Both the position numbers and the translations under genes were made by a program. Positions 12,001 through 33,116 of a stretch of DNA of 33,116 nt are shown here, one piece after another (positions within the stretch are counted from its first letter, which is position 1; every line of letters begins with the position of its first letter). This DNA comes from Hormiphora californensis (lineage: Eukaryota; Animalia; Ctenophora), in the NCBI GenBank assembly GCA_020137815.1, contig WFME01000017.1, forward strand, positions 1 to 33,116, written 5' to 3'. The notes under the pieces were generated by a model. That model was given only the letters and a program-made list of their open reading frames with translations, did not search any database and was not told the origin of the DNA.

Positions 12001-12788
12001 CTAACTCTCTCTCCCCAACTGTGTCAGATGAGGCCAGCATACTACTAGGCCTGTTGTTCTCCCTGCACTGTATATAGTAAGATTTCTAACCTTCTCTCCA
12101 CCAACTGTGTAGAATGAGGCCAGCAATACTGGCCTGGTTGTTCTCCTGCACTGTATTAGTAAGATTTCTAACTCTTCCCCAACTGTGTAGAATGAGGCCA
12201 GCAATACTCGGCCTGGTTGTTCTCCCTGCACTGTATATAGTAAGATTTCTAACTCTTCCCCAACGTGTAGAATGAGGCCACAATACTCGGCCTGGTTGTT
12301 CTCCCCTGCACTGTAGATAGTAAGATTTCTAACTCTCCCCAACTGTGGTAGAATGAGCCAGCAGCAATACTCGGCCGGTTGTTCTCCCTGCACTGTATAT
12401 AGTATAATTTCTAACTCTTCCCCACTGTGTAGAATGAGGCCAGCAATACTCGGCCTGTTGTTCTCCCTGCACTGTTATAGTAAGATTTCTAACTTTCCCC
12501 AACTGTGTAGAAGAGGCCGAACAATACTCGGCCTGGGTTTTCTCCCTGCACTGTATATAGTAAGATTTCTAACTCTTCCACTGTGTAGAATGAGGCCAGC
12601 AATACTCGGCCTGTTGTTTCCCTGCATGTATATAGTAAGATTTCTAACTCTTCCCCAACTGTGTAGAATGAGGCCAGCATACTCGGCCTGGTTGTTCGCC
12701 CTGCACTGTATATAGTAAATATTTCTAACTCTTCCCCACTGTTTAGAATGAGGCCAGCAATACTCGGCCTGGTTGTTCTCCCTGCACT
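1..12788 (+). repeat. 81-bp tandem satellite, roughly 155-160 copies; consensus GTATATAGTAAGATTTCTAACTCTTCCCCAACTGTGTAGA-ATGAGGCCAGCAATACTCGGCCTGGTTGTTCTCCCTGCACT
   Basis: Unit read directly (clean copies around 12150-12240). Head-to-tail with no spacers. The last copy runs into TMED10 exon 1. Copy number estimated as length/81. The array continues past the left window edge. Confidence 0.97.
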
Positions 12789-12830
12789 CATCTCTCCGCA
12801 CTTTCCTTCCTTCAAACTTAACCCCTGAAG
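12748..12830 (+). CDS. TMED10: TMED10 exon 1 (signal peptide), with indels as assembled
   Basis: ATG at 12748 preceded by TTTAG|[23 protein letters not shown](E) then GAAG|GTAAG donor. One extra C in ACCCCTGAAG creates an apparent TGA. Confidence 0.75.
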
Positions 12831-14986
12831 GTAAGAAGTAAGGGATTATTAATGTTAACTTGATATGAACTTAGAACCTGAAGGTAACGACGTGAGGGAT
12901 TGTTAATACTTGATGTTAACTTTGGAACCCTGAAGGTAAGACGTGAGGGATTGTTAATACTGATGTTAACTTTAGAACCTGAAGGTAAGAAGTGAGGGAT
13001 GTTAATACTTGATTGTTAACTTAATTGAACTTGAGAACCCGCAATGGCAACCCCGCTCCTCTTAATATTTACTTTTGTGACTCTCATAATTCTATAAACA
13101 TAACAAAATTAAGCAAATATTGATTCCCTGACGAACGAAATGTTTCTCCCACGCCCTTCTCAGGTACAAGATGCATCAAGAGGAGGTACTAAAGGTTGTT
13201 CTAGTGGTTGGGAGTTCAAGATTGAAGGTCTACAGGGATCTCATGATGTTGATATTACCGTGACTGATAGTAAAGACGGGAAACTGTTTGCCAAGGAGAA
13301 GGTATGTTACCGCGTCACTATTTGTCACCAATTGCCACTATTTGTCACTATTTGTCACTACTTTTTACCAATTGCCACTATTTGTCACTATTTGTCACTA
13401 TTTGTCACTATTTGTCGCTATTTGTCACTATTTGTCACTATTTGTCATCAATTGTCACCAATTACCACTATTTGTCACCAATTACCACTATTTGTCACTA
13501 TTTGTCACTATTTGTCACTATTTGTCACTATTTGTCACTATTTGTCACCATGGCAACCCCGCTCCTCTCCCCGGTATGTGGTATGTGGTATGAGTGTGGT
13601 ACATATGAGCGTATAATACCAGTACCTTGTAATGTTTATCCCTCTGGTGAGAGAGAGGGTCGAGCAAGAAAGACACATCGAGAATGGGGGAATAGGAGAC
13701 ATGGGGAAATGAAGGGAGTTGTGAAATCTGAATTAAAATATCCTTTAATTCTTCCAAATCTAAGCTGTTCTCATCCCAGGCTGAAAGTGGAAAGTTTGCC
13801 TTCACGCTGGACGATTATGATATGTTCAGTGTATGTTTTAAAGGTCAACGGAAATCCGAGGTAAGACAAGTTTAGATAATTGACATGAGCTTTCGAGAAC
13901 ACTTTGTTTCACACGTCTTCAGGTTTAGACAGTTTTAGATAGTGGGGGTGGATTATACCCTAAAAAGTATTTTTAGCCAATTTCTGGAGGAGATATTTTT
14001 ATAATTTCCTGACACACTAATTACTTTAGGTGACAGGGAGGAGTCCCCCTGCCCCGGATCTCGATGTGAATTTATCTATCAAGAGGGGAGTTGAAGCGAA
14101 GGCTTACAATGAAATCTCAAAGGTAATGAAACAATATGTGTCTCGGTTGTCAATCCGCCTGGCTTCCGTTTTGGCAAACCTCATCATCCTAGCATTCAAA
14201 AAAAGAAAGAGATGGTGAAAGAGAGAACGAATGTGGCAAAATCAGCCAATAAAATCACTAACCCATTACCAGGCTGAAAAGTTGAAGCCCATGGAACTGG
14301 AATTGAAGAAACTAGAAGATCTATCTGAAGCTATTGTTAACGATTTCCAGTACATGAAATCTCGAGAGAAGCTGATGAGGGATACTAATGGTAGGAAGTT
14401 GAAAATGCTATTACGATTTACAATGTGGACTCCACATTATAGAGTCCACATAGAATTACAGTTGTCCGTAATTGTGGACAAAATCTTAAGTCCTGGTAAC
14501 CAATCCACCACTCCTGGAACATCTCATAAACCCCCTATAAAATATTCAATCTTGGTTGTTCTGGTAACAAGAGTTGGTCGTTGTGAGACATTAGATTGTG
14601 CCACGTTAGGGCACAATCTCATACTTTGCGTAGCGCGCGGTGTCACCCACTTACAAATTCCCGCGCTAACTCGATGACGCGCACAACCTGCCACGTCTGT
14701 GTGTGTCCAGGATTGAAAACTCCACTGCTCCCACTCCTCCGGGAGACCTCCGCCTCCCACTTCAACAACTTTGGGCAAGTTATCCACCAGACGCAGCACT
14801 CACAAGCAGACTCACAATCCCCCCAACAATTTTACAACTTCTAACACCCCATTTACCATTTCAGAATCCACCAACAGTCGAGTCCTCTGGTTCAGTGTAT
14901 TCTCTATGGCAGTTTTACTTGGTCTAGCTCTATGGCAGGTGTTCTACCTCAAACGATTCTTCAAGGCCAAGAAGTTGATCGAATGA
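12748..14986 (+). CDS. TMED10: p24 delta / TMP21 transmembrane emp24 (GOLD) domain cargo receptor, 6 exons: 12748-12830, 13164-13301, 13780-13860, 14030-14122, 14273-14390, 14865-14986
   Basis: Spliced translation gives signal peptide [112 protein letters not shown], a TM segment and the tail [13 protein letters not shown]. All match TMED10 from recall. GT-AG boundaries; phases are consistent for exons 3-6. Exons 1-2 need a few small indel corrections (probable read error). Confidence 0.95.
12815..13040 (+). repeat. About 50-bp tandem repeat (4 copies plus partial) spanning the exon 1 donor site
   Basis: CCTGAAGGTAA recurs at 12824, 12877, 12929 and 12978, each followed by ...GGGAT(T)RTTAAT...AACTT. 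Confidence 0.85.
13164..13301 (+). CDS. TMED10: TMED10 exon 2 (GOLD domain N-part)
   Basis: TTCTCAG| acceptor; (G)[45 protein letters not shown] after restoring two single-base deletions; |GTATG donor. Confidence 0.85.
13314..13550 (+). repeat. 10-bp minisatellite (TTTGTCACTA)n in TMED10 intron 2
   Basis: About 23 copies visible, with variants ATTGCCACTA / ATTACCACTA. Confidence 0.95.
13780..13860 (+). CDS. TMED10: TMED10 exon 3
   Basis: CCCAG|; [27 protein letters not shown]; |GTAAG. Confidence 0.93.
14030..14122 (+). CDS. TMED10: TMED10 exon 4
   Basis: TTTAG|; [31 protein letters not shown]; |GTAATG. Confidence 0.92.
14273..14390 (+). CDS. TMED10: TMED10 exon 5 (coiled coil)
   Basis: CCAG|; [39 protein letters not shown]; phase 1 |GTAGG. 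Confidence 0.95.
14865..14986 (+). CDS. TMED10: TMED10 exon 6 (TM helix and FF/KKXX-like tail)
   Basis: TTTCAG|; [40 protein letters not shown]. Confidence 0.96.
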
Positions 14987-16107: not shown

Positions 16108-19100
16108 TTTCTTAAAGATAAAGAGGTCAAAGTGGGAAAGTTTCTAAGAGATTAGGAGGTCAAAGTGGGACAAGTTTCTTAGAGATAAGAAGGTCAAAGT
16201 GGGAAAGTTTCTTAGAGATAAGGGGGTAAAAATGGGAAAGTTTCTTAGAGATAAGGAGGTCAAAGTGGGAAAGTTTCTTAAAGATGAGGAGGTCAAAGTG
16301 GGAAAGTTTCTTAGAGATAAGGAGATCAAAATGGGAAAGTTTCTTAGAGATAAGAAGGTCAAAGTGGGAAAGTTTCTTAGAGATAAGGAGGTCAAAATGG
16401 GAAAGTTTCTTAGAGATAAGGAGGTCAAAATGGAAAAGTTTCCTATAGATAAGGGGGTAAAAATGGGAAACTTTCTTAGAGATAAGGAGGTCAAAGTGGG
16501 AAAGTTTCTTAGAGATAAGGAGGTCAAAGTGGGAAAGTTTCTTAAAGATAAGGAGATCAAAATGGGAAAGTTTCTTAGATATAAGGAGGTCAAAGTGGGA
16601 AAGTTTCTTAGAGATAAGGGGGTAAAAATGGGAAAGTTTCTTAGAGATAAGGAGGTCAAAGTGGGAAAAGTTTCCTAGAAATTAGGAGGTCAAAGTGGGA
16701 AAGTTTCTTAGAGATAAGGAGGTGAAAATGGGAAAGTTTCTTAGAGATTAGGAGGTCAAAGTGGATAAGTTTCTTAGAGATAAGGAGGTCAAAGTGGGAC
16801 AAGTTTCTAAGAGATAAGGAGGTCAAAGTGGGACAAGTTTCTTATAGATAAGAAGGTCAAAGTGGGAAAGTTTCTTAGAGATAAGGAGGTCAAAGTGGGA
16901 CAAGTTTCTTATAGATAAGAAGGTCAAAGTGGGAAAGTTTCTTAGAGATAAGGGGGTAAAAATGGGAAAGTTTCTTAGAGATAAGGAGGTCAAAGTGGGA
17001 AAGTTTTTTAGAGATAAGGAGGTCAAAGTGGGAAAGTTTCTTAGAGATAAGGAGGTCAAAGTGGGAAAGTTTCTTAGAGATAAGGAGATCCAAATGGGAA
17101 AGTTTCTTAGATATAAGGAGGTCAAAGTGGGAAAGTTTCTTAGAGATAAGGAGGTCAAAGTGGGACAAGTTTCTAAGAGATAAGGAGGTCAAAGTGGGAC
17201 AAGTTTCTTAGAGATAAGAAGGTCAAAGTGGGAAAGTTTCTTAGAGATAAGGGGGTAAAAATGGGAAAGTTTCTTAGAGATAAGGAGGTCAAAGTGGGAA
17301 AGTTTCTTAGAGATAAGGAGGTCAAAGTGGGAAAGTTTCTTCGAGATAAGGAGATCAAAATGGGAAAGTTTCTTAGAGATAAGGAGGTCAAAGTGGGAAA
17401 GTTTCTTAGAGATAAGGAGGTCAAAATGGGAAAGTTTCTTAGAGATAAGGAGGTCAAAATGGAAAAGTTTCTTATAGATAAGGGGGTAAAAATGGGAAAC
17501 TTTCTTAGAGATAAGGAGGTCAAAGTGGGAAAGTTTCTTAGAGATAAGGAGGTCAAAGTGGGAAAGTTTTTTAGAGATAAGGAGGTCAAAGTGGGAAAGT
17601 TTCTTAGAGATAAGGAGGTCAAAGTGGGAAAGTTTCTTAGAGATAAGGAGATCCAAATGGGAAAGTTTCTTAGATATAAGGAGGTCAAAGTGGGAAAGTT
17701 TCTTAGAGATAAGGAGGCTAAAGTAGGACAAGTTTCTTAGAGATTAGGAGGCTAAAGTAGGACAAGTTTCTTAGAGATAAGGAGGTCAAAGTGGGACAAG
17801 TTTCTTAGAGAGGGAAAGTTTTTCTTAGAGAAATGGGTACAAAATGGGGAACGTTTCTTAGAGATAAGTATGGGGGCGCGGTGGTCAAAATGGAAAGGCT
17901 TTTCTTAGGAGATAAGGAGGGTCAAAGTGGGAAAGTTTCTAAAGATAAGGAAGTAAGTGGGAAAGTTCTTAGAGAAGGGAGGTCAAGTGGGAAAGTTTCT
18001 TAGGAGTTAGGAGCTAAAGTGGACAAGTTTCTTAATTAGGAGGCTAAAGTAGGACAAGTTCTAGAGATAAGGAGTTCAAAAGTGGGACAGTGTTTCTTAG
18101 AGTAAAGGGGGGTCAACAGGTGGGAAACCGTTTCTAAGATAAGGAGGTTCAAAGGGCACAAAGTTTCTAAGAGATTAGCAGGTAAAATGGGACATTTCTT
18201 AGAGATAAGGAGGTCAAAGTGGGGAAGTGTTTCTTAGAGTAGACGGAGGTCAAAAATGGGAAATGTTTCTAGAGATTAGAAGTCAAAGGGGAAAGTTTCT
18301 TAGAGATAAGGGGGTTCAAAAATGGGAAAGTTCTTAGAGTAGGGTGTCAAAGTGGGAAGTTTCTTAGAGATAGAGTGGGGCAAATGGAGAAAGTTTTTTA
18401 GAAGAAGACGGGTCAAAATGGCAAAAGTTTTTGCATTAGTAGATAGGAGGTCAAGTGGGAAAGTTTCTTAGAGATAAGGTAGGTTTCAAAGTCCTGAGAA
18501 GTTCTTAGAGATAAGGAAGTCACAAAGTCGGTGGGAAAGTTCTTCGAGAAATGGGAGTGTCGTCAACAGTGGGAAACACTTTTCTAGAGAGTTAGAGGCC
18601 TACGAAGTAGGACATTAGATTTTCTTAGAGATAAGGAGGTCAAAGTGGGAAAGTTTTCTTAGAGAAGGAGGTCAAAGTGGAAAGTCTTAGAGATTAGGAG
18701 GCTAAAGTAGGGACAAGTTTCTTAGAGATAGGAGGCTAAAGTAGGACAAGTTTCTTAGAGATAAGGGACGGTCAAAGTGGGACAAGTTTCTTAGCGAAAG
18801 GGGGTTTCAAAGTGGGAAAGTTTCTCATAGATAAGGATAAGGTCAAAGTGGCAAGTTCTAAGAGATTAAGCAGGTTAATGGGACAGTTTCTTAGAGATAA
18901 GGAGGTCAAGTGGGAAAGTTTCTTAGAGATAAGGAGGTCAAATGGGAAAGGTCTTAGAGATTAGGAGGTCAAAGTGGGAAAGTTTCTGAGAGATAAGGGG
19001 GTCAAAATGGAAAGTTTCTTAGAGATTAGAGGTCAAGTGGGAAAAGTTTCATTAGAGAGATAAGGGGTTCAACATGGGAAAGTTTCTTAGAGATAAGGAG

Positions 19101-20127
19101 GTCAAAATGGCAAAGTTTCTTAGAGATAAGGAGGTCAAAGTGGAAAGTTTTCTTAGAGATAAGGAGGTCAAAGTTGGAAAGTTTCGTAGAGATAAGGGGA
19201 AGTCAAAGTGGGAACGTTTCTTAGAGAAAGGGAGGTCAAAAGTGGGAAAGTTTCTTAGAGATTAGGATGTAAAGTAGGACAAGGTTCTTAGAGAATAAGG
19301 AGGTCAAAGTGGGACAAGGTTTTGAGAGATAAGGGGGTCAAGTGGGAAAGATTCTTATAGATAAGGGAGGTCAAAGTGGCAAAGTTTTCTAAGAGATTAG
19401 GGAGTTTAAAAGGGACAGTTCTTAGAGGTTAGGATTGTTCAAAATTGGGAAAGTTTCTTAGAGATAAGGAGGTCAAAGTGGGAAAGTTTCTTAGAGATAA
19501 GGAGGTCAAAATGGGAAAGTTTCTTAGAGATTAGGAGGTCAAAGTGGGAAAGTTTCTAAGGGGAAACTCTAACTGAATGGCATCCCATTAATGGGATTCC
19601 ATCAACAGTAAAACTCTAACTGATAATGGACCACAGTGATGGTTCTTTCTCTGTATTCTCTCTGTGTGCGCGCCCGTGCCCGGGCATGCCCTATATTTCT
19701 TTCTCTGTATTCTCTCTGTAGGCAGTACATAGATGTACTGCCTACAGAGAGAATACAGAGAAAGAACCATCACTGTGGTCCATTATCAGTTAGAGTTTTA
19801 CTGTTGATGGGATCCCATTAATGGGATGCCATTCAGTTAGAGTTTCCCCTTAGAGATAAGGGGGTCAAAATGGGAAAGTTTCTTAGAGATTAGGAGGTCA
19901 AAGTGGGAAAGTTTCTTAGAGATAAGGAGGACAAAGTGGGAAAAGTTTCTTAGAGATAAGAAGGTCAAAGTGGAACAAGTTTCTTAGAGATAAGGAGGTC
20001 AAAGTGGGACAAGTTTCTTAGAGATTAGGAGGTGAAAGTGGGACAAGTTTCTTAGAGATAAGGAGGTCAAAGTGGGAAAGTTTCTTAGATATTAGGAGGT
20101 CAAAGTAGGAAAGTTTCTTAGAGATAA
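16108..20127 (+). repeat. 33-bp satellite GATAAGGAGGTCAAAGTGGGAAAGTTTCTTAGA, left part
   Basis: Direct reading. Clean 16108-17810, indel-rich 17810-19440, interrupted by a MITE at 19560-19849. Confidence 0.97.
19560..19849. mobile_element. 290-bp palindromic MITE inserted in the 33-bp satellite (GGGGAAACTCTAAC...GTTAGAGTTTCCCC), TAA/TTA flanks, possibly PIF/Harbinger-type
   Basis: About 105-bp terminal inverted arms plus an inner hairpin. Satellite phase resumes on both sides. Superfamily inferred only from GGG termini and TWA flanks, which are not identical. Confidence 0.85.
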
Positions 20128-20337
20128 CCCCATCAGAATGTCGCTCGGCAATTTCCGCATTGGCTCGGTGATTGGTTCGGTAACAACAAGTGGTTTGCCG
20201 AGCCATGCGGCCTTGTGCGGTAAGTTTTCGGCGACCTCCTTGACTGTCCGAACCATGCTGGTTCGGCAAACCACCTGTTGTTCCCAAGCCGTATCCCGAG
20301 CGAATGCGGAAATTGCCGAGCGACATTCTGATGAGGG
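20128..20337. mobile_element. 210-bp MITE copy 1, about 35-bp TIR CCC(Y)CATCAGAATGTCGCTCGGCAATTTCCGCATT; CMC/EnSpm-like
   Basis: TIRs visible; near-identical copy at 31828-32036. CCC termini with 2-bp TSD are known for animal CMC/EnSpm elements. Confidence 0.85.
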
Positions 20338-20369
20338 TTTGGTCATTTTTTGAGGTTGCCGCGCATTGT

Positions 20370-20975
20370 TAAGATTTATAAAGATTTATAATGATTTATA
20401 AAGATTTGTAATGATTTGTAAAGATTTGTATAGATTTATTTAGTAAATGCTTTATTCCCAAGCCCCTTCAGCTCAGGCTTGCTGCCTGCGCGCATATGAT
20501 TCTCTGAATCCATGTAGACCCCAGTCCTCATCCTGGACGCCCGAAAACGTGAAAATCCAAAAGTGAAAAGACCAAAGATAGACTCTGGAACTACCCATGG
20601 TGACGCAATCACCCTTACAACTCGCGTACGTAGCGCGCCAAAACGAAGCCCACGTAGCAGAGAGGTGACGGCGCCACCAACAACTACCCATGATCTCGCT
20701 TCTCCGGTTTAGGAGTTGGTGGTTCCTCGACTCAATCAAAATCTCCATCTTTTCGGTAGTGCACAGGTCACATAACCGATCCCCAATTCTGTACGGTCTT
20801 CCCTTTTTCCTTCCCGAATGTGATCCCCTTGTCTTTCAACTCCCAAACCTTTTCAGACAGCCTTGTAGATGTTATTTTTTCGGAGTTGTTGAATATGTGC
20901 TTGTGCTGGTTGAATCGGGTTTTAAATGAGTTCCCTGTTAACCCGATAGTGATTGATAGTGAGACGGATTCCATG
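20370..20975 (-). mobile_element. Degenerate 3' fragment of a Penelope-like retroelement (GIY-YIG endonuclease), with AATAAA (20451-20456) and a 10-bp tandem tail (20370-20440)
   Basis: Minus-strand frames give IGLTGNSFKTRFNQHKHIF..STRLSEKVWELKDKG, then CDLCTTEKMEILIE..LLNRRSEIMGSC..RH, the typical Penelope-like endonuclease C-terminus. Frameshifted. Confidence 0.8.
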
Positions 20976-21049
20976 AATTATTGTGTGAAGTTCATTTAAA
21001 AGAAAATTAATACCACAGGAGCACTAATAAAAGCAAGCAAAGCATGTAA

Positions 21050-23200
21050 TATTAAAAATTTTTAAAAAATGGGGACCGAAATTTAACCGAAAGAGGGTCA
21101 AAAAGATCCCCCCGATTTTTAAACCGGGCCCCCCGTTTCCGTTTCCCAAAAATGGCTTCCCCCCCGAGGTCCCGGTAAATGGGGGGGCCCCCGACTGCTA
21201 CCTTTGTATACCTTTCCCCCCCCGTTTCCAGATATCTAAGAGAGGACACTGACGAGCTTAAAGGGGGGAGCCCCTTTTTTTTTATGGATAGAATATTGAG
21301 TGCGGGATCGAGAGAGTTTTTGTGTCCGTACCATGTGAAATTTCCCACCGCCCAGACCCAGAGTAGGAGGGAATTACCATAGTACTAAAATCGATCACCA
21401 AAAAATTGTTTTTTGAGGAAAAAAATTCGTGGGAAATTCAGTTTTAAGTTAGTCATCAATTTACACCATTGGGGCAGGGGAAAACAGCATTATAAAAATA
21501 ATAATTCCCCAAAAAATTGGGGAAAAAAAAAATGAAAAAACCGGAGATTTGAAAAAAATTATTCACAGAATTGTAAATTCCCCCATGTTTGCAATAGAAG
21601 AAAACAAAAACAAAAGGGGGGGGGGGCACCGGGGGTGGAAGCGAACTCATACCTAAGCAAAATTAAAAAATTTGGTAAAAATGGTAGGGGTTTTGAAAAG
21701 GGACGAGTACCCGCCAAAAGGCGGCGAAGGGGGGGGGGGCCCTGAGCAGGTAAAAAGAGGGGGGGGTGGGAGGCAAATAAGAATGTCGGAGAAAATCAGT
21801 TAAAAAGAAAAAAAAAAAAGGTGTTTGCTAGGTTTTGATTCTTTATCATCGAAAAAAAAAACGCAGGTGGGGCGGAAATTAGATATCACGTAAGAGTGGC
21901 CCTGGAGCGTCTCTTAAGTTGGTGGAAAATCAACACCAGGTGCGCACGTTCTGATTTTTTTATGGGGGATGCATGTTATGTTTTAGTAAAAGGTAGATTC
22001 GCCCCGCGGGGGCTGTTTTACAGGACGGATAGACACCCCAAGGGGGGGGGGGAAAGGGAAAGCGAGGAAGGCAAGGGGAAAATTCCAAAGGAAATTAAAA
22101 GGGGCACATTAAAAGATTTTAAAAGGAAACCACATGGGGGTTTTAAAATTTTAAAAACCCCTTGGTTTGGTTTTTCAAAGGTTTTTGGGAAAAAGGGGGG
22201 ATTGGGGAAAAAGCCCACATGAGGGTTTTTTAAGGGGGGTTTTGGGTTTAACCAAAGGGGGAGAAGTCACAATTAAATTGGTTTAAAATCCAAAAAAACC
22301 CCCGGGGGTTTTTTTTTTAAATTTTAAAATTTTAAAAAAATTTTTTTTTTTTTTGAAAAAACCCCGGGCCCCTTTAAAACCCTTAAAGTTTTTAAAGCCC
22401 CCCCCCGGGGGGTTGTTTAATGGGGGCCCCGGGGGTTAAAAAAGGGGGGGGAAAAAAAAAACCCGGGAAAAAAACCCCAAGGGGGAAAAAAAAAAAAATT
22501 TCAAAAACAAAAAAAAAGGTTGTTTAGGAAAGGGGGGGGGGGAAAAAAAAGGGGGGTTTCCCCCCCAAGGGGGGGGGAAAAAAGGGGGGGCCCCAAAAAA
22601 AAGAAAGGAGGAAAAGAAAAAAAACAAAACCAAAAAAAAGGGGCCCGGGGTTTGCCCCCAACCAACCGAAAAAAACCCCCCCCCGAAAAAAAAAAAAAAG
22701 GGCCCGGGGAAAAAGGGGAAAAAAAAAACCCCCCCCCCCCCCCCCCCCCTTTTTTTCCCCCCAAATTTTAAGGGGAACCCGGGGAGGGGGGGGGCCCCTT
22801 TTCCCCAAAAAAATTTGAAAAAAGGCACGGGAAAAGGAAGAAGGGAAAAAATTTTTTTAAAAGGGAAAAATTCCCCCAAAAAAAAAAACCCCCCCCGTTT
22901 TCCCAAAAGGTTTGGGTTTGAATTGAAGGGGAAAAGAACCAAATTTGGGGTTTGGGGGGAAAAAAAAGGAAAAGGGGGGAGGGAAGAGAAATTTCCCAAA
23001 AGGGGGGGAGAAAGGGGGGAACAAAAGGAGGGGGGGGGTTTTTTTTTTAAAAAAAAAAAGGGAAAGGGGAAAAAAAAGGGGGGGGGAGGAAAAAGGTACA
23101 AGGACCCAAAAAAAGGTTTTTAAAACCCAACCCCCCGGGGGTTTTTTTTTGGGAAAAAGGAAGGGCGTTTAAAAGGGGAGGCCGGGTTGGGTTTTTTTTT
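21050..23200. other. Low-quality homopolymer-dominated tract, probably sequencing or consensus failure
   Basis: Runs of A, C, G and T dominate. Corrupted versions of neighbouring repeats are recognisable at both edges (about 21100-21200 and 23160-23240). Confidence 0.75.
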
Positions 23201-23712
23201 AACTAATGGGATGGAACTAATGGTAATATGGAGAATCTAAATATTTTCGAAATGATCTCAAATTGCCAGCAAAGTAAAAACAATGCTCCAAAGGGGCGGT
23301 GTTACACGTAACGCTTGGGTTGACATCTGATTTAGGTTCTATTCGACACCCATAATATGGGTGGAATTAAACAGTGACACGTGCAGTGTACTGAGTGAGC
23401 CCGTGAGAATGTGACATGCGGGCCTGGTTTCTGTGAGATGAAGTGATCGGATAGAGGAGCGGAGCACACATCAGAGGCCCAAAAAAATTTTTAATCAGTC
23501 CCATAGCAACATGAAGTGGTCATGACGGGGAAGTTATCATTCCAGGAATGCGCGCAGCGGAAGGAGAAGTAAAGAGTCGTGTTAGTAGCCACGGGTTGCG
23601 GGCGGCAATTCCGCCAGTTCCCGTAATTTTGGTCAGCACCATGCAGGACGCCATGAAATTCTTAATAAAGGGAGCATGTCCGTTAGAAAACGCACTGAAC
23701 AACGCTTCGAAT
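23160..23712. repeat. Deletion-rich copy of the element at 24241-24885
   Basis: Collinear matches such as CGAAATGATCTCAAATTGCCAGCAAAGTAAAAACAA and GGAAGTTATCATTCCAGGAATGCGCGCAGCGGAAGGAGAAG. Confidence 0.85.
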
Positions 23713-23964
23713 TCTTTTTAAATCGGGCGTCCGCTAATCGGGATCAAATACAAAATGTACAGTGTACCCCCTATTTTAACAAATCACGAAGTTTTATAGA
23801 AATCGAATTGTATCGCTGAAATAGTGTTTTTTAAAGTTTACTTACAATTCACGTCAATAAAATTTTTTCGGTATTGAGTTGATGAAAGTTGAAAACGATG
23901 CGCTCCCCGATTCCCCAGTTATTTTAGGGGCTAAATAAAACACAGGAACACTTCGAGGAATCGC

Positions 23965-24055
23965 TCTCTCTATCTCTCTACTCTTCTCTTATCCTTGAAG
24001 GAGAAAAGAGAGAGAAGAGAGAGAGGAGAGGAAGAGAGAGAGAGAGAGGGGAGAG

Positions 24056-24139
<84 letters not shown>

Positions 24140-24177
24140 GAACTCTGCGCTTCTCTAATAATCTCTCTCCTCCTCCC

Positions 24178-24217
<40 letters not shown>

Positions 24218-24237
24218 CTCTCTCTCTCTCTCTCTCC
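23965..24237. repeat. (GA)n then (TC)n microsatellite
   Basis: Direct reading. Confidence 0.9.
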
Positions 24238-24240
24238 CAA

Positions 24241-24885
24241 GTAAGGGCGTTTTGATAACCCACCCGGCGGAGCCGGGTGGCCCTCTTTTTCCCACATATG
24301 TCACCAGTTCAATGGTTGCCATGGCAACTAAATCGGTAACTATGGAGACTGAATTGCTAAATTATGTTCCGAAATGATCTCAAATTGCCAGCAAAGTAAA
24401 AACAACTGCTCCCAAAAGAGGGCCGGGTGTTACACGTAACGCTTTGGGTTTGACATCTGATTTAGAGTTCTATTCGACACTCCCATAATAATGGGTGTGG
24501 TAATTAAACATGTGACACTGTGCAGTGTACTGAGCTGATGACTGTGAGATATGTGACACTGACAGGGCCTGGTTTCTGATGAGATGAAATGTGATCGGAT
24601 AGCAGGAGCAGTGAGCACACATCAAGAGGACCCAAAACAATTTAAATCAGTGCCATAGCAACATGAAGTGGTCATGACAGGAAGTTATCATTCCAGGAAT
24701 GCGCGCAGCGGAAGGAGAAGTTAAAGCAGTCGCTGTTAGTAGCCACTGTGTGCGGGCGGCTCAACTTCCGCCATAGTTACGTAATTTTGGTCACTGCACC
24801 ACTGCAGGACGCCATTGAAATTCTTAATGAAGGAGCACTGTCGCGTAGAAACGCACTGAACGAACGACTTCGACTTCGACGCGAC
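24241..24885 (-). mobile_element. Non-autonomous element with terminal GC hairpin and subterminal inverted repeat (Helentron/DINE-like, tentative)
   Basis: Hairpin CCACCCGGC-GGA-GCCGGGTGG near one end. GTCGCGT...ACGCGAC inverted repeat with (CGACTT) repeats at the other. Both ends are shared with 24933-25187. Confidence 0.5.
24315..24328. promoter_or_regulatory. Perfect RFX X-box palindrome GTTGCCATGGCAAC
   Basis: Exact match to the X-box consensus; one-mismatch copy at 24995-25008. Function not shown. Confidence 0.4.
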
Positions 24886-24932
24886 ATTTCCAAATTATAA
24901 TATAGACTAGCGCACCCATTGGGTGCGCCTCA

Positions 24933-25187
24933 AGTAAAGCCTTTTGATAACACACCCGGCTTCGCCGGGTGGTTCTTTCAACGTCAATAATATGGTTGTC
25001 ATGGCAACTGGAGTAGTAAATGGAGTGGGAATTATTGAAATTCATTCGAAAATATTAACAAACTTCCACTGGAAGATCCAAAAGTGTAAATGGAAGCTTT
25101 ACAGCTTTGGGCACATTGAAGTGTTTTATGAAGGAGCAGCCTGTCGCGTAGATACCGCTGAACGAACGACTTCGACTTCGACGCGAC
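24933..25187 (-). mobile_element. Shorter relative of the 24241-24885 element, same termini, different interior
   Basis: TTTTGATAAC..CACCCGGCTTCGCCGGGTG head; CTGAACGAACGACTTCGACTTCGACGCGAC tail; followed by (TA)n. Confidence 0.5.
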
Positions 25188-25801
25188 TATATATATATAT
25201 ATAGAGATATATACATAAAATATGTATTGTAAAATGTAAATATATGTAATACGGTATTTGACCATTACGGTTTCTGAAATACATATGTATTTGAAATACA
25301 TATATATTTCGGTGTCACGTGTTGTCAATCTGGCGCTCTGATTGGTCTCGTCTTACCGTTTTTCACTGATACCGTGTTGAACCGATACTGTATTCTCACT
25401 ACAAGCACCCATGTAACCATTTGCATTTATCTAATTCTAACTAATCGAATAATTTGATACAACAGCTGTAGGAATTCACACAGGCCAGGTCTTAATTTTG
25501 ATAATCGTCCGAATCATCGAGTAGAGAATTACGTTTTATGATATCTATGCTAACTGGGGCCGGGGGGGGGGGGGGAAGATACTGAACTGGAGGTACTGAA
25601 CTGGAGTTCGGCGACTACTTACTGAAAAAAAAAAACGAAATTCGGGCGTCCAACCAATTATTAGTTTTGCTTCAATTAGGAACCCCCCCCCCCCCCGTCA
25701 GTACGGCTGTTTACTGAAAATAACTGAATTATATTTTTTCTTCAATAAGTATAGCTGCACCGTCTACTTGCTAAATCGTTATTGTCTTTTTTAGATTCTT
25801 C

Positions 25802-26789
25802 ATGGTGTTAGTGGTATATCTCTTCATCTCACTGCTGCTTATACAGACCGGCTCTGGAACAGGTAACAGTAATTACAGTGGGATCCCGATTATACGGTAT
25901 ACCTTACTCTCGCTAATTAAGAAACGCTTTAGGAAGAAATTTTTTTATAAGAAACGGGAAATGTGGAAACACATTAAATAAGAAACCCCAAAATAAGAAA
26001 CTCCCCCAAGAAAGTAAGAAACCCCAAAAATAAGAAACGCAAAAATAAGAAACCCCAAAAATAAGAAACGCAAAAATAAGAAACCCAAAAATTAAGAAAC
26101 CCCAAAATTAAGAAACCCCAAAATTAAGATACCCCAAAATTAAGAAACCCCAAAATTAAGAAACCCCAAAATTAAGAAACCCCAAAATTAAGAAACCCCA
26201 AAATTAAGAAACCCCAAAATTAAGAAACCCCAAAATTGAGAAACCCCAAAATTAAGAAACCCCAAAATTAAGAAACCCCAAAATTAAGAAACCCCAAAAT
26301 TAAGAAACCCCAAAATTAAGAAACCCCAAAAATAAGAAACCCCAAAAATAAGAAACCCCAAAAATAAGAAACTCGAAAAATAATAAACTCGAAAAATAAG
26401 AAACCTAATTAGGGGAGGGCCTCAAAAAGCCCTAAAATGGACATTTTTGACAACACAGACCAAATGCGGCAAAATAACGCAATTTGAACTAGGTAAAATG
26501 TTGTTTAGGCTATTTCGAAGGTGTGGTCAAAATTTCAGCTCATAACGGTTGACAGGTTACGAAATGGTGGCCGGAATAAGTAAGCTGAGACAAGGGGGTT
26601 AAACACAACACAAAACAACTGCAATGAACTGCTTGTGTGTAAACACTCAGAACTGTCGCAGAATGCAGAGGCCCGTTTCTTATCTCTGTTTTCAAGATGG
26701 GTGTGTCGCCCTGCTTTCTCTCCCAATCTCTCTTCCTATCTCGTCCTCTTTTTCTTTCTTTATCATTGATGATGTCTGCGTGTGTGTGT

Positions 26790-26869
<80 letters not shown>

Positions 26870-27294
26870 CTAAGAAGCAAAGCGAGTGTTAAAACACAAT
26901 CTAAGAGTGGGTGGGTACGAAAAGATAAGGTATTAGACCAGAATGTAGCTCGACAGTGGGGGGTACGAAAAGATAAGAAGTGATACTGAGTGTGAGAAGG
27001 GAAAAAGGGGGGGGGAAGAGATGAAACAAAAATGACGACACGAAAGCAAGAAATCATGAACACAAAACACACGGATTTGAGAGAGTGCAAGAGATAGATG
27101 AACGAGATAGGGATCGGGAGGTGCTCATGCGTGACAGACCTCCACGCACGTGACTTAGAATGCTGGCACCCAATTGGCTGATCATAGTGAAAGTGAAAGT
27201 GACCATAAATGCAGCAATTTGATTGGCTGCGCTGACTGAGTTTGTGATTGGGGGCGGGAACTGGGAAGAGAGAGAGAGAGGGAGAGAGAGAGAG

Positions 27295-27359
<65 letters not shown>

Positions 27360-27363
27360 GTGG

Positions 27364-27431
<68 letters not shown>

Positions 27432-30400
27432 AAGCAGGGCGACACACCCATCTTGAAAACAGAGATAAGAAACGGGCCTCTGCATTCTGCGACAGTTCTG
27501 AGTGTTTACACACAAGCAGTTCATTGCAGTTGTTTTGTGTTGTGTTTAACCCCCTTGTCTCAGCTTACTTATTCCGGCCACCATTTCGTAACCTGTCAAC
27601 CGTTATGAGCTGAAATTTTGACCACACTTTCGAAATAGTCTAAACAACATTTTACCTAGTTCAAATTGCGTTATTTTGCCGCATTTGGCCTGTGTTGTCA
27701 AAAATGTCCATTTTAGGGCTTTTTGAGGCCCTCCCCCTAATTAGGTTTCTTATTTTTTGAGTTTCTTTTTTTGGGGTTTCTTATTTTTTGAGTTTCTTTT
27801 TTTGGGGTTTCTTATTTTTGGGGTTTCTTATTTTTGGGGTTTCTTATTTTTGAGTTTCTTATTTTTGGGGTTTCTTAATTTTTTTAGTTTCTTAATTTTG
27901 GGGTTTCTTATTTTTGGGGTTTCTTATTTTTGGGGTTTCTTATTTTTGGGGTTTCTTATTTTTGGGGTTTCTTATTTTGGGGGTTTCTTAATTTTGGGGT
28001 TTCTTAATTTTGGGGTTTCTTACTTTTGGGGTTTCTTAATTTTTGGGGTTTCTTATTTTTGGGGTTTCTTAATTTTGGGGTTTCTTATTTTTGGGGTTTC
28101 TTAATTTTGGGGTTTCTTATTTTTGGGGTTTCTTATTTTTGGGGTTTCTTATTTTTGGGGTTTCTTATTTTTGGGGTTTCTTAATTTTGGTTTCTTATTT
28201 TTTTAGTTTCTTAATTTTGGTTTCTTATTTTTTCAGTTTCTTAATAAACGAGAGAGTTTCTTATTTTTAGGGTGTCTAAATTTTGGGGTTTCTTGTAAAA
28301 AAGTTTATTATTTAAAAGTTTCTTGAAATATGCGAGCTTAATTAACGAGAGTAAGGTATACTATACCAGGCACTCCTTTCCCCGATTTGCCAGGACTTTC
28401 TCCCCGAGAATCCCCGTAAATCGGCCGGGTCCGACTATTAGTAATAGGAGAAAGAATAGGGCTGACGAGAGATAGTAATTACAACATATAATCTTAACAA
28501 GAACTAGAATGACTGCCAAAGAACAGGGAGGCATGGGAATTCCCCCGGAGTCCAAATTAAGAGAAGTGATAGAGAAGTGATAGAGAGAAAGAGACACCCC
28601 GATTTAACGGACAAAACTCCTTCCCCCGAAATTACCGTCAGACTGTATATATAATATTATATAAATCACATCTGCCATTAAAGGGCCTAAAAACCCAAAT
28701 TTTAATTAATTATTTTGAACACTCCATCGTAACAAGCATGCTATTGGAGTCCCAAAAAGCATAGGCACACGCCACATGGACCCCAGGTGAGCCCAGGGGG
28801 AGCCCCTCAAGTTGGGGCCCATTTGGGGTCCCCTTGTAAACGCGCTTGTACTCCTTGAAATGCTAACAATATGATCCTCTCTCAAATATAAAATTTAGGA
28901 TAGAAATGATCCTTGTGTTTTAGTAGATTTCATAATCTTTCTCATCAATTATTATTTAAGCCTATCAAAACTAGGATAAAAATTACCAGAATACAGAGAC
29001 AAGAAAGGTTATGTACTCACCTGTAACATAAGGATAAATTTACCCAAAACTTCAAATTTGAGAGAGGATCATATTGTTAGCATTTCAAGGAGTACAAGCG
29101 CGTTTACAGGGGGACCCCAACTGGGCCCGAACTTGAGGTGCTCCCCCTGGGATCACCTTGGGTCCGTGGGGCGTGTACCTATGTTTTTTGGGACTCCAAT
29201 AGCATGCTTGTTACGATGTAGTGTTCAAAATAAATAAATAGAATTTGGGTTTTTAGGCCCTTTAATGTGTATGTGTGTGGCTCTAGGTTTTAGCGTACCA
29301 AACTCACCCTTCTGACCACCTTTGTTTTCAGACCGTTGTGTTAATAAGATCCAGTACCCATATGCATCTGACGGAACAAGTTATGCAATCCAACATTACA
29401 ATGAGTCAGGAAGGTTTCATGAATTCACCCTAGCCTTCTGGTTCGGGTACGATTCATGGCCGTCAACTGATTGGCAATGCGTAATGGGGTTCGCGACGGG
29501 CGTTCCTGTCGGTCCTACACTAATTGAAGATTTAAAAAATCCTTTAAACGATGAATCACTTGATGTTTGGTTTCAAACATCAGGGAAACAAATCCGTATA
29601 GATTTTGCTAAGGATTACGAGATTTGTAAGTTTGACTGAGCTGAGCTGACAACAATCACAGCTAAAAAATTCCAAAATATCAATGATGAGATCTTGTTCA
29701 GGATTAAGATAGAGAAGATATTAAAAATCTTGTTCTGATAAAAAATTCCACACACACACAATTATATAAATGTTTCCATATTTACACTTTTTAGGGACAA
29801 CAACAACCCTTTCTTTGAGGACCTGGAACCACTACACGGTCACATTCAACACGGTTGTGGGCCTAAAGATCTACGAGAATGGCACGGAAACAGTGTCTAG
29901 GGACGATCTTGCTAGTTATCAAATTCTGAAAGCAGGATACCTTGTCTTTGGGCAGGTAACTAAAGTAAAACACAAACATACACACACACACACAATTAGG
30001 CTTGGGGTTTGTGATATTTACAACGGTCATAGCTCGTGAGATAGAATTTGAATTTGGAGTTTAGGAAGAACTCGAAATGATCCTTCTAACTTCCAAATTT
30101 GCCTTTTTTAGTTTGGGTTAATTAAACCGTTAAGTTGGACCCAAACTAAAAAGGCAAACTTTGATTCAATATTTTGTTAAAATTCTAAAACATTTTTGAT
30201 CTTACAAAAGCTTTCAACTTTTCATTATCAGGACCAAGATAAACCAGCAGATCCAGCATCATTTCAAATTAAACAGTCCTGCTCCGGTCGTGTTAAAGAG
30301 CCGTACTTCTCGGACAAAGCAATTGGTTCTGATGAGGTGGCATTGTTGTACAAGGATCACCACCTTCCTGCAGGGACCAACATGATCGATAGTCATACTA

Positions 30401-30448
30401 TAACTGAATACGGTGAAATCGATATCTCATACACCGTTTGTAACCAAG
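25802..30448 (+). CDS. Secreted pentraxin/LamG-like domain protein, exons 25802-25862, 29332-29625, 29795-29955, 30232-30448; 3' end not resolved
   Basis: Signal peptide MVLVVYLFISLLLIQTGSGT. Spliced frame is open with consistent phases (1,1,0): ..EFTLAFWF..WNHYTVTFN..LKIYENG..GYLVFGQ|DQD..SFQIKQSCSGRV..DEVALLY, the pentraxin pattern (W.H...T, LxxGQEQD). Exon 4 ends in a phase-1 G|GTATG donor (read-through stop at 30466-30468). Confidence 0.8.
25876..28645. mobile_element. Tc1/mariner-type MITE (TA|CAGT...ACTG|TA) in pentraxin intron 1, split by the foldback element
   Basis: Termini CAGTGGGATCCCGATT and ..CAGACTG with TA flanks; internal CCCCGATTT / TAAATCGG motifs in 28361-28645. TIR match is short and degenerate. 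Confidence 0.55.
25900..28358. mobile_element. 2.46-kb foldback-type element: 0.8-0.9-kb inverted arms with internal 16-17-bp minisatellite (AAGAAACCCCAAAATT)n, TA TSD
   Basis: TA|TACCTTACTCTCG...CGAGAGTAAGGTA|TA. 26405-26722 is the reverse complement of 27426-27745. Minisatellite at 25980-26405 and 27745-28270. About 700-bp GA-rich spacer. Confidence 0.88.
28682..29261. mobile_element. 580-bp MITE, about 205-bp TIR, TTAA TSD (Kolobok-like AG terminus)
   Basis: TTAA|AGGGCCTAAAAACCCAAATT...AATTTGGGTTTTTAGGCCCT|TTAA; arms extend to GATCCTCTCTCAAAT / ATTTGAGAGAGGATC. Confidence 0.88.
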
Positions 30449-30517
30449 GTATGGTTATTTACATATAGCACTGAAGATGGTCGCGTGTGTTACGCGGAAT
30501 TATAATGGAATCAAACG

Positions 30518-31406
30518 TATGAAATCATTTGTAAAAGGCTAATTTTTTCGCGGTGTCCTTTATTCGTTTTTGACATTTTTTGACCGGATTATCGAAAAAT
30601 GCACAAAATGTTGAAATTGACTCAGTATATGTATTATGGCTAAACTTTAAGAGATGTACCAGTAAATAAATAAACCTCTTGCAAACGAGTTCTCGGTCAA
30701 AAATGGTTGATTTCATATGAAGTATGAACGTTTGTAGACTGGCGCGTTATGAAGTTGGCTGTTCCCAGCGCGAGCTGGGGACAGCCAACTGGAGTTTAAT
30801 CGCCCGGCAGGGCGATTAAACTGGTTTAAATCCCGACGCCGATCCCGAGGCGCCAGCCGAGGGTGAGGGGGAGGTGATTTAAACCTATAACGCGATAGGC
30901 TAACAAACGTTCATATTTTATGAAACCCGATAGTAATTACACACAAATAAGAGACACAACACAAGGTGAAACACACTAGGACTGCTGGCAAATAGTCAAT
31001 AGACACCCTGAAAATGTGTGTAGACTTAGTGTCTACTGTTCCTAACATGTTTGAGAAAGAGAGAGAAAGATTAGGAGCAATACACACTGTCAGAGGTAGT
31101 GAACAGTAAAAGAGACAATGAGAGAGAGAAATGAATGGAATGTGATTCTTTTCACTCCTTATGAGAGAGATAACATTGAAACGTGTTGCAGACATATTAC
31201 CCCTTTCTTTTGTTGACAGAACTGTGTGTTTACACACATTTTCAATACTTAGAATTTTACACGCATGTTATTCAAATGAAGAGAAACGCGTGAAAAAGGA
31301 CTCTGGCCTGATAAATCGCGAGCAGGGTGTTAAATCCCCCAGCTAGCAGTTATCATGAGCGCGCAAAATCTTCAAACGACTGATAAATCAGCTATCGGGT
31401 TTCATA
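30518..31406. mobile_element. Tripartite TATGAAA-bounded element with central cloverleaf (non-autonomous Crypton-like, tentative)
   Basis: Inverted repeat pairs 30518-30527/30708-30717 and 30919-30933/31392-31406 flank a multi-hairpin core. Confidence 0.5.
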
Positions 31407-31827
31407 TCTCCGTGAAACGTCGAACTCCGAATTCTTCAGTGTGCGTCATGCACCGTTGAGATCTCAATTCAATGCGCACCACTTGACATGTTCCTTGTCT
31501 GTCAGCTCTCACACCGGGCCGAAGGCCCGGTGTAAGCGAGGCGCTTAAGTGCCGAACAGACAGACTGCGTAGCATGGCAACGCACCACCAACTTCAGTGT
31601 GTCTCCTCCCAAATTCATACATAAATTCATACATTACATACATAAATTCATAAAACGGTCCCTTTCTTTCCCTCGAATCGTAATCTAACAAAGATATTTA
31701 TATGTTGGATTGAATTGGACAGGATTGAATCAAAGTTCGCCCTACAGCCCAAAGACAGGCGTCTGTTCAAAGCACAGACTAAATTTTGGTATCAAAAGAA
31801 AGCTATACTATAATAGATGTATGGGCG

Positions 31828-32036
31828 CCCCCATCAGAATGTCGCTCGGCAATTTCCGTATTGGCTCGGTGATTGGTTCGGTAACAACAAGTGGTTTGCC
31901 GAGCCATGCGGCCTTGTGCGGTAAGTTTTCGGCGACCTCCTTGACTCTCCGAACCACTGGTTCGGCAAACCACCTGTTGTTCCCAAGCCGTCTCCCGAAC
32001 GAATGCGGAAATTGCCGAGCGACATTCTGATGAGGG
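31828..32036. mobile_element. 210-bp MITE copy 2 (same orientation as 20128-20337)
   Basis: Near-identical sequence with a few differences. Confidence 0.88.
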
Positions 32037-32916
32037 AAGGAGGTCAAAATGGGAAAGTTTCTTAGAGATAAGGAGGTCAAAGTAGGTAAGTTTCTTAGAG
32101 ATAAGAAGGTCAAAGTGGGACAAGTTTCTTAGAGATAAGAAGGTCAAAGTGGGACAAGTTTCTTAAGGATAAGGGGGTCAAAGTGGGAAAGTTTCTTAGA
32201 GATAAGGAGGTCAAAATGTCAAAGTTTCTTAGAGATAAGGAGGTCAAAGTGGGACAAGTTTCTTAGAGATAAGGAGGTCAAAGTTGGAAAGTTTCTTAAG
32301 GATAAGGGGGTCAAAGTGGGAAAGTTTCTTAGAGATAAGGAGGTCAAAATGTCAAAGTTTCTTAGAGATAAGGAGGTCAAAGTGGGACAAGTTTCTTAGA
32401 GATAAGGAGGTCAAAGTGGGAAAGTTTCTTAGAGATAAGGAAGTCAAAATGGGAAAGTTTCTTAGAGAAAGGGAGGTCAAAGTGGGAAAGTTTCTTAGAG
32501 ATTAGGAGGCTAAAGTAGGACAAGTTTCTTAGAGATAAGGAGGTCAAAGTGGGACAAGTTTCTTAGAGATAAGGGGGTCAAAGTGGGAAAGTTTCTTATA
32601 GATAAGGAGGTCAAAGTGGCAAAGTTTCTAAGAGATTAGGAGGTTAAAATGGGACAGTTTCTTAGAGGTTAGGAGGTCAAATTGGGAAAGTTTCTTAGAG
32701 ATAAGGAGGTCAAAGTGGGACAAGTTTCTTAGAAATTAGGAGGTCAAAGTGGGAAAGTTTCTTAGAGATAAGGAGGTCAAAATGGGAAAGTTTCTTAGAG
32801 ATAAGGAGGTCAAAGTGGGACAAGTTTCTTAGAGATAAGGAGGTCAAAGTGGGAAAGTTTCTTAAAGATAAGCAGGTCAAAGTAGGTAAGTTTCTTAGAG
32901 ATAAGAAGGTCAAAAT
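32037..32916 (+). repeat. 33-bp satellite, right part
   Basis: Same monomer and orientation as 16108-20127. Confidence 0.97.
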
Positions 32917-33002
32917 CTTGTTTTCTTTGATAAAAAAAAAAATTTTCCAAAAAAAACCCATACACACAATTATATAAATGTTTCCATATTTATACTTTTT
33001 AG

Positions 33003-33116
33003 GGACAACAACAACCCTTTCTTTGGGCACCTGGAACCACTACACGGTCACATTCAACACGGTTGTGGGCCTAAAGATCTACGAGAATGGCACAGAAACA
33101 GTGTTTAGGGACGATC
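33003..33116 (+). CDS. Second copy of pentraxin exon 3 (runs off window)
   Basis: TTTTTAG|GG ACA ACA..; TTTTLSLGTWNHYTVTFNTVVGLKIYENGTETVFRDD. Four nt differences from 29795-29908. The upstream intron (32912-33002) is also homologous to 29724-29794. Confidence 0.8.

What the first reader, a model, noticed from the sequence alone, without database searches (positions are those of the whole stretch)
20128..32036. Eukaryotic composite transposon: two MITEs carrying 11.5 kb of host DNA including a pentraxin gene
Seen: two same-orientation 210-bp TIR elements bracket the segment. Neither has matching flanks on its own (copy 1 AA/TT, copy 2 CG/AA), but the outer ends are AA/AA and rejoin into an exact satellite monomer (GAGAT-AA-GGAGGTC). 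Cargo includes four intron-separated, in-frame exons of a secreted pentraxin-domain gene with its upstream region. Known: paired TIR elements can move intervening DNA (bacterial composite transposons, maize Ac/Ds macrotransposition), and animal CMC/EnSpm elements make 2-bp TSDs. Inference: MITE-pair mobilisation acts as a gene-duplication mechanism here. Alternative: ectopic recombination or circle integration into a MITE already in the satellite.
Basis: partly seen in the sequence, partly recalled or inferred. Interest (0 to 1): 0.87.

Follow-up and report, generated by a model that had tools for sequence, protein, structure and literature searches.

The report
MITE-bracketed pentraxin gene in comb jelly
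In a comb-jelly genome, two near-identical 210-base mini-transposons bracket about 11.5 kb that holds a pentraxin gene and sits inside a tandem repeat; the pair likely jumped as one unit, as known from flies and maize, but a garbled stretch of the assembly leaves the link between the two ends unproven.

Summary
Observation confirmed. Two same-orientation hairpin elements (20128-20337, 31828-32036; 97% alike) bracket 11,490 bp. The outer flanks rejoin a 33-bp satellite monomer with a 2-bp AA overlap; the inner flanks (TT, CG) do not match. The cargo holds a four-exon, 250-codon pentraxin-like gene whose closest protein is from Pleurobrachia bachei, so the host is a pleurobrachiid ctenophore. 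Short-read contigs hold the right outer junction at single-haplotype depth (one sample, possibly the source) and the inner right junction in both samples laid; the element is a dispersed family of some tens of copies. The left junctions, donor locus, empty allele and transposase were not tested. Best reading (0.45): macrotransposition using the outer ends of two linked MITEs. Rivals: mis-joined interior (0.22), recombination into a satellite-resident MITE (0.20), reversed-ends composite insertion (0.10). Gene duplication is not shown (2-3 copies by contigs). The CMC/EnSpm label is untested. Known kind (Drosophila Ising TE, maize Ac macrotransposons), apparently a new host group.

The parts
16108..20127 (+). 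33/34-bp tandem repeat, left part (target array); noisy between about 17800 and 19450
   Evidence: TRF rows 16108-19557 and 19849-20127; monomer table; indel counts
20126..20127 (+). left copy of the inferred 2-bp target-site duplication (AA)
20128..20337 (+). MITE copy 1 (CCC..GGG ends, about 34-bp TIR, hairpin); left end one C shorter than copy 2
   Evidence: its two junctions were not tested in reads
20338..31827 (.). cargo, 11,490 bp
21000..23200 (.). homopolymer-rich junk: continuity across it is unproven
   Evidence: no specific source after homopolymer compression, only low-complexity matches
23157..24900 (.). two indel-rich copies of one ~560-bp sequence (raw-read quality or mis-merged haplotypes)
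25802..30468 (+). four-exon pentraxin-like gene, 250 codons, predicted signal peptide; a GT donor at 30449 may lead to a further exon that was not found
31718..31827 (.). piece of another multi-copy repeat into which MITE copy 2 is inserted after CG
   Evidence: depth and loose ends
31828..32036 (+). MITE copy 2
   Evidence: junction-crossing contigs X3 records 2 and 8, X6 records 11 and 12
32037..32038 (+). right copy of the inferred 2-bp target-site duplication (AA)
   Evidence: X3 record 8
32037..32914 (+). 33/34-bp tandem repeat, right part; shares a block of variant monomers with 18798-19558
32914..33116 (+). second copy (allele or paralogue) of pentraxin intron 2 / exon 3, joined straight to the satellite; unexplained

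Best explanation
Two 97%-identical 210-bp MITEs bracket 11.5 kb with a pentraxin gene inside a ctenophore satellite, and the block likely moved as one macrotransposon cut at the outer MITE ends. Shown: the anatomy, the 2-bp AA overlap at the outer ends, a dispersed MITE family, and both right-hand junctions in short-read contigs. Inferred steps: (1) two sister copies came to lie in direct orientation on either side of the gene, at TT and at CG, perhaps by a local hop; (2) a transposase supplied in trans paired the left end of copy 1 with the right end of copy 2 and skipped the inner ends; (3) the 11.9-kb unit was inserted at AA in the satellite, making the 2-bp duplication; (4) if the donor was repaired from a sister or homologue, or the new copy segregated with an intact donor, the gene was duplicated. 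Step 4 is not shown.
For: Outer flanks restore the monomer only with a 2-bp overlap (33 of 34 matches); inner flanks TT and CG do not match each other or the outer ones. Loose ends from other loci start exactly before 31828 (X3 1 contig, X6 3) and behind 32036 (X3 2), fixing the element's ends. The MITE-to-satellite junction is in X3 as a 57-letter contig, 0 differences over the 50 laid letters, depth 49.7, within the 29-55 range of nine single-version X3 contigs. The inner CG junction occurs on other haplotype backgrounds (X3 record 2; X6 records 11, 12), and X6 record 9 runs on into 197 unlike letters at 31831, as a site without the element would; so copy 2 looks like a resident, polymorphic insertion rather than a product of this assembly. 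The one X3 loose end before the element ends in TT, the flank predicted for copy 1's donor site (1 contig, about 1 in 16 or likelier by chance, not linked to this locus). Both copies carry A where every laid contig of four runs has G (31985), so they look like close sisters. Three versions of the 3' flank (30551-30592) in S1, in both X1 and X3, fit two donor alleles plus one extra copy. The right array shares 71 variant 12-mers only with the near part of the left array and 20 only with the far part.
Against: About 2.2 kb of junk and 1.7 kb of raw-read-quality sequence lie between copy 1 and the gene, so the two ends may not be on one molecule. Neither left junction was tested. No junction contig meets the tool's 31-letters-each-side rule (X3 record 8: 28 letters on the MITE side; record 2: 30; X6 records 11, 12: 26 on the flank side), and no listed contig spans a whole MITE with both flanks. 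S1 may be the source individual, so it is not independent; X6 (S2) has no cover at 32044-32058. X3 record 2 differs from the window at 8 letters plus 1 gap, so it is not the window's own haplotype. Exon 2 shows only two versions and total depth at 30358-30372 is 83.8 in X3, about two copies. TSD length comes from one site; if any overlap of 2-9 bp had been accepted, chance phase agreement is about 8 in 33. The near part of the left array is noisy, which inflates shared k-mers. The second gene fragment at 32914 is not explained.
Confidence: 0.45

Rival explanations
1. The contig is a chimera inside the cargo. Each MITE-satellite junction may be real, but the junk stretch joins two unrelated loci or haplotypes; the true structure is a larger rearrangement, or two ends of a different-sized unit.
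For: Homopolymer junk at 21000-23200 and an indel-rich duplicate at 23157-24900; noisy satellite at 17800-19450; an unexplained satellite-to-intron join at 32914 with a noisy start.
Against: It still has to explain two in-phase AA junctions in the same orientation. The sequence around both MITEs is clean, and the right-hand junctions are in short-read contigs. Long reads should not jump through a 210-bp repeat twice (inference).
Confidence: 0.22
2. Homologous recombination, no transposase: the segment looped out of the donor as a circle between two direct MITE copies and integrated into a MITE already sitting at AA in the satellite (or a double crossover did the same).
For: It gives exactly the same flanks (AA/TT, CG/AA). 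The two copies share a rare letter at 31985, as sister substrates would. The X3 outer junction could equally be one end of a lone AA-MITE-AA insertion.
Against: It needs two crossovers within 210 bp of homology and a third close sister copy in the satellite (inference); no such allele was seen, but none could be seen with contigs.
Confidence: 0.2
3. Reversed-ends transposition during replication made a composite insertion: the donor order is copy 2 ... copy 1, and the cargo is two re-replicated flanks joined by repair, with the join hidden in the noisy stretch.
For: The maize model gives transposon termini flanking a segmental duplication with an internal junction (PMC4270019, abstract and passages). 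A second copy of the gene lies 3 kb away at the window end, as a local event would predict.
Against: No internal junction was located; the nearby second copy may be an assembly artefact; the mechanism is shown for hAT elements in the paper read.
Confidence: 0.1
4. Two independent MITE insertions happen to border a segment that split the satellite by another route.
For: The family has tens of copies and the satellite is very abundant.
Against: Neither copy has matching flanks of its own; same orientation and exact phase together are about 1 in 66 for a fixed 2-bp TSD; the copies are close sisters.
Confidence: 0.03

Closest known systems
Drosophila Ising TE / TE146 (foldback-bracketed composite)
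   Same: Host DNA between two DNA transposons moves as a unit in an animal (PMC6431247, passage).
   Different: Hundreds of kb between large foldback elements, movement seen cytologically; here 11.5 kb between 210-bp MITEs, movement only inferred.
Maize Ac/Ds macrotransposons
   Same: Outer ends of linked elements define a 10-28 kb unit that excises, reinserts and can increase in number (PMC9910405, passages).
   Different: hAT with 8-bp TSD and an autonomous partner; here a 2-bp overlap, CCC..GGG ends and no transposase found. The primary papers (Huang and Dooner 2008; Wang 2022) were not held.
Maize composite insertions by reversed-ends transposition
   Same: Same final topology: TE ends, duplicated host DNA, one outer TSD (PMC4270019).
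   Different: Needs an internal repair junction and the reverse donor order; neither tested.
Pack-TIRs / Ssk-FB4
   Same: TIR elements carrying host genes in animals; 370 cases in 100 genomes (PMC8277862, abstract and passages).
   Different: The cargo lies inside one element; here two complete elements bracket it. The terms 'composite', 'MITE' and 'alternative transposition' have 0 hits in that paper's main text, and its methods say TE-linked parental copies may be missed.
Bacterial composite transposons
   Same: Two elements frame and mobilise a cargo (PMC6431247, passage).
   Different: IS elements encode their own transposase; MITE-flanked bacterial units are recalled from memory, not checked here.

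Membership tests
MITE (non-autonomous TIR element) | short, non-coding, terminal inverted repeats, stable hairpin | tested here: met
   209-210 bp, about 34-bp TIR, z = -14.1
MITE (non-autonomous TIR element) | dispersed multi-copy family with sharp ends | tested here: met
   X3 depth 1057-3465 over most of the element (411-602 at 31979-32004) against 29-55 for single versions; loose ends exactly at 31828 and 32036
MITE (non-autonomous TIR element) | TSD of fixed length at several copies | tested here: inconclusive
   2 bp inferred from the satellite rejoin only; flanks of other copies could not be paired
composite transposon / macrotransposon | two related elements bracket host DNA; TSD only at the outer ends | tested here: met
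   (in the assembly)
composite transposon / macrotransposon | both outer junctions on one real molecule | tested here: inconclusive
   right junction k-mers in X3; left junction untested; junk inside the cargo
composite transposon / macrotransposon | donor locus with both elements and their own TSDs; empty target allele | not testable with these tools
   no genome held; only short contigs served; hints: TT-ending left flank in X3, possible empty site in X6 record 9
CMC / EnSpm (CACTA) | 2-5 bp TSD (2 bp for animal CMC MITEs) | tested here: inconclusive
   2 bp at one site; 2-bp TSDs also occur among Harbinger relatives (PMC12730594)
CMC / EnSpm (CACTA) | 5'-CA..TG-3' or CAC..GTG termini | tested here: not met
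   ends are CCC..GGG against passages in PMC12730594 ('in most cases') and PMC6004678; CCC ends in some animal EnSpm families are recalled, not confirmed (searches found no paper)
CMC / EnSpm (CACTA) | autonomous partner with the CMC transposase and the same TIR | not testable with these tools
   no genome held; TIR scans of three public collections gave 0
pentraxin family | Pentaxin / LamG domain with signal peptide | tested here: met
   orthologue P0001 passes PF00354 (33.6 bits, cut-off 25) and PF13385; exons 2-4 are 78-91% identical to it; hydrophobic N-terminus. The spliced window protein itself was not scanned.

The most novel reading that the evidence does not exclude
Pairs of 210-bp MITEs act as ready-made transposon ends in ctenophores, and this is a segregating, heterozygous duplication of an intact immune-type gene into satellite DNA: a route to whole-gene duplication in animals that Pack-TIR surveys are not built to see.
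Probability: 0.25. Interest if true: 0.7.

Novelty: new member of a known kind. Interest (0 to 1): 0.45.

Why it matters
If real, it is a natural animal example of whole-gene movement by the outer ends of two tiny non-autonomous elements, in the sister group to other animals. MITE-dense genomes hold many such linked pairs, so the route could add to gene duplication and relocation there, and a polymorphic case can be tested directly with phased long reads. The principle is already known from Drosophila and maize, so the gain is in host range and element size, not in mechanism.

Tried and rejected
No whole genome is held. TIR pattern scans: 0 matches in metagenome, viral and prokaryote contigs; exon 2 against metagenome contigs: 60 pattern hits, 0 confirmed. 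No RNA holder listed; no reading on expression. Rfam: 0 matches in 12700-33116. Three look-ups of earlier findings returned nothing. Homopolymer-compressed search found no source for the junk. No exact empty-site copy was singled out in the left array: best scores 118 of 132 to 463 of 558, at different places. Idea that the cargo is a circle or tandem unit with one MITE: rejected, inner flanks CG and TT differ. Idea of an 86-bp mini-element with CG duplication at 31740-31825: dropped, contigs show the repeat begins near 31718 and other copies leave at 31805-31807. Idea that the 33-bp repeat codes for an LRR-like protein: dropped, common variants give stops and 34-bp units shift frame. My note that the window comes from a third individual (notes) is withdrawn as unproven: contigs drop one side of short bubbles, so S1 may be the source. 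X6 has no cover over the right outer junction; a hole proves nothing. Five of 22 listed runs held half the words or more; 4 runs were laid and 2 of those; most rows of both outputs were not shown. Papers not held. No supplements were read.
Full report
Scope. I checked the sequence, identified the host group, laid public short-read contigs on the right half of the structure, and compared with the literature. No whole genome was held, and both read-laying runs went to the right half, so the left junctions are untested.

Copy 1 (20128-20337) and copy 2 (31828-32036) are same-orientation elements, 97.1% alike, differing by four substitutions, one C at the left end and a 2-bp indel. Copy 1 folds into a long hairpin (z = -14.1, 0 of 200 shuffles). 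Flanks are AA/TT and CG/AA. Removing the block and one AA restores the 33-bp monomer: 33 of 34 letters match at a 2-bp overlap, the best of 11 overlaps tried. The cargo is 11,490 bp. It holds four exons with GT..AG introns that join to 250 codons with a hydrophobic N-terminus. A strong donor site at 30449 could lead to a fifth exon; none was found by tblastn with the orthologue.

Host. Two homologue searches each returned one protein, both from Pleurobrachia bachei: 78-91% identical to exons 2-4, and 93% to an exon of a p24/TMED10-type gene at 12748-14986. The orthologue passes the Pfam Pentaxin cut-off and matches CRP, SAP-like and neuronal pentraxins. The window is therefore from a pleurobrachiid ctenophore (inference). 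One pleurobrachiid has about 3.2% heterozygosity (PMC8527503, passages), which matters for telling alleles from paralogues.

From 21000 to 23249, 18-65% of bases lie in homopolymer runs of five or more, against 0-4% just before; no source was found for this stretch. Next to it, 23211-23714 and 24321-24877 are 84% alike with many single-base indels. The satellite at 17801-19000 has 139 gap letters in 1,200 bp against 10 in the 1,693 bp before. So the link from copy 1 to the gene runs through poorly supported sequence. At the window end the satellite joins, without a MITE, a second copy of intron 2 / exon 3 with six substitutions; two of them (29753 T, 29886 A) are letters seen in the laid contigs. 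It may be the other allele mis-joined, or a real neighbour.

Read evidence. Of 22 runs listed, five held half the sampled words or more, all from one organism, two samples. All are contigs, which drop rare variants, and S1 may be the source individual. In one search (X3 = S1, X6 = S2; 43 and 112 records laid, 16 listed): X3 record 8 crosses from the MITE into the satellite, 0 differences, depth 49.7, with 28 letters on the MITE side; X6 has no cover there. X3 record 2 (depth 45.3; 8 other letters, 1 gap) and X6 records 11 and 12 cross the inner CG junction on other haplotype backgrounds. X6 record 9 covers the same flank and runs on into 197 unlike letters at 31831, which looks like a site without the element. 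None meets the tool's 31-letter bridging rule. Loose ends from other loci begin exactly before 31828 and behind 32036, so the element's ends are right. The single X3 left flank shown ends in TT, as predicted for copy 1's donor, but this is one unlinked contig. Depth over most of the element is 1057-3465 against 29-55 for single versions, that is some tens of copies (summed depth is a rough guide). Both window copies have A at 31985 where all laid contigs have G, so they look like sister copies.

Is the gene duplicated? Not shown. In S1 there are two versions of exon 2 (depths 51.5 and 49.9; 6 and 11 other letters against the window) and total depth 83.8 at 30358-30372, which reads as two copies. 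At 30551-30592 both X1 and X3 show three versions, one identical to the window, which reads as three. Depth varies with base composition, so 2-3 copies is the honest range.

Mechanism. Most likely (0.45) a transposase paired the outer ends of two linked sister MITEs and moved the 11.9-kb block to an AA in the satellite. The anatomy and the right-hand junctions are shown; the donor, the jump and any duplication are inferred. Recombination of an excised circle into a satellite-resident copy gives the same letters (0.20) but needs two crossovers in 210 bp. A reversed-ends composite insertion (0.10) also gives the same outer structure, with an internal join that the noisy stretch could hide. A chimeric interior (0.22) is the main artefact risk. 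Two chance insertions (0.03) need same orientation and exact phase. The right array shares a block of variant monomers with the near left array (alignment score 534 over 760 bp; 71 against 20 exclusive 12-mers), modest support for one interrupted array.

Comparison. Animal composites are known: the Drosophila Ising TE moves hundreds of kb between foldback elements (PMC6431247, passage). Maize Ac macrotransposons of 10.3 and 28 kb excise and reinsert (PMC9910405, passages), and reversed-ends transposition makes composite insertions (PMC4270019, abstract and passages). Pack-TIRs carry genes inside one element (PMC8277862, abstract and passages). The CMC/EnSpm label is only a lead: passages give CA..TG or CAC..GTG ends and 2-5 bp TSDs for that clade, and 2-bp TSDs also for Harbinger relatives; three searches for CCC-ended or 2-bp-TSD animal EnSpm elements found no paper. 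In the listings I saw no title on a MITE-pair composite in an animal; of the 22 papers holding 'macrotranspos', 19 were listed and most are on plants. The library lacks most subscription papers, so this is not proof of novelty.

Verdict. A real-looking MITE-bracketed gene block in a ctenophore satellite; half of its junctions have read support, its interior is unverified. New member of a known kind; interest 0.45.

Noticed in passing
window 1-12788: The 81-bp tandem array (over 140 units by the rows) contains the start codon and first 14 codons of the p24/TMED10-type gene; its last unit runs into the gene. A 50-bp x4 repeat at 12824-13022 seems to cover the first exon end. A gene start amplified into a 12.8-kb array, or an assembly artefact.
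   Followed up: partly
window 32914-33116: Satellite joins a second pentraxin intron 2 / exon 3 copy through weak similarity to 29700-29727, with a noisy start; the window ends at GATC.
   Followed up: partly
window 19560-19849: Palindromic GGGG..CCCC element inserted in the same satellite with TAA / TTA flanks; looks like a Harbinger-type MITE (label recalled).
   Followed up: no
window 25900-28358: 2.4-kb foldback element in pentraxin intron 1, with 16-bp tandem arrays in both arms and TA at both ends; Tc1/mariner-like (label recalled).
   Followed up: no
window 28678-29265: Palindromic element with TTAA at both ends in intron 1; Kolobok-like (label recalled).
   Followed up: no
window 30711-31399: 689 bp of high-copy repeats that other haplotypes lack (joint 30710 to 31400 in X3, X4, X6); intron 2 also differs between haplotypes (joint 29662 to 29739 in X4, X6).
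   Followed up: no
window 31980 (X6 loose ends): Some family members have a right arm that is the exact reverse complement of the left arm, so the window's two copies belong to a less symmetric sub-type.
   Followed up: partly
window 29851-29859: Contigs with three extra letters in exon 3 (X3, X4) match the extra residue in the P. bachei protein: a further allele or paralogue class.
   Followed up: no
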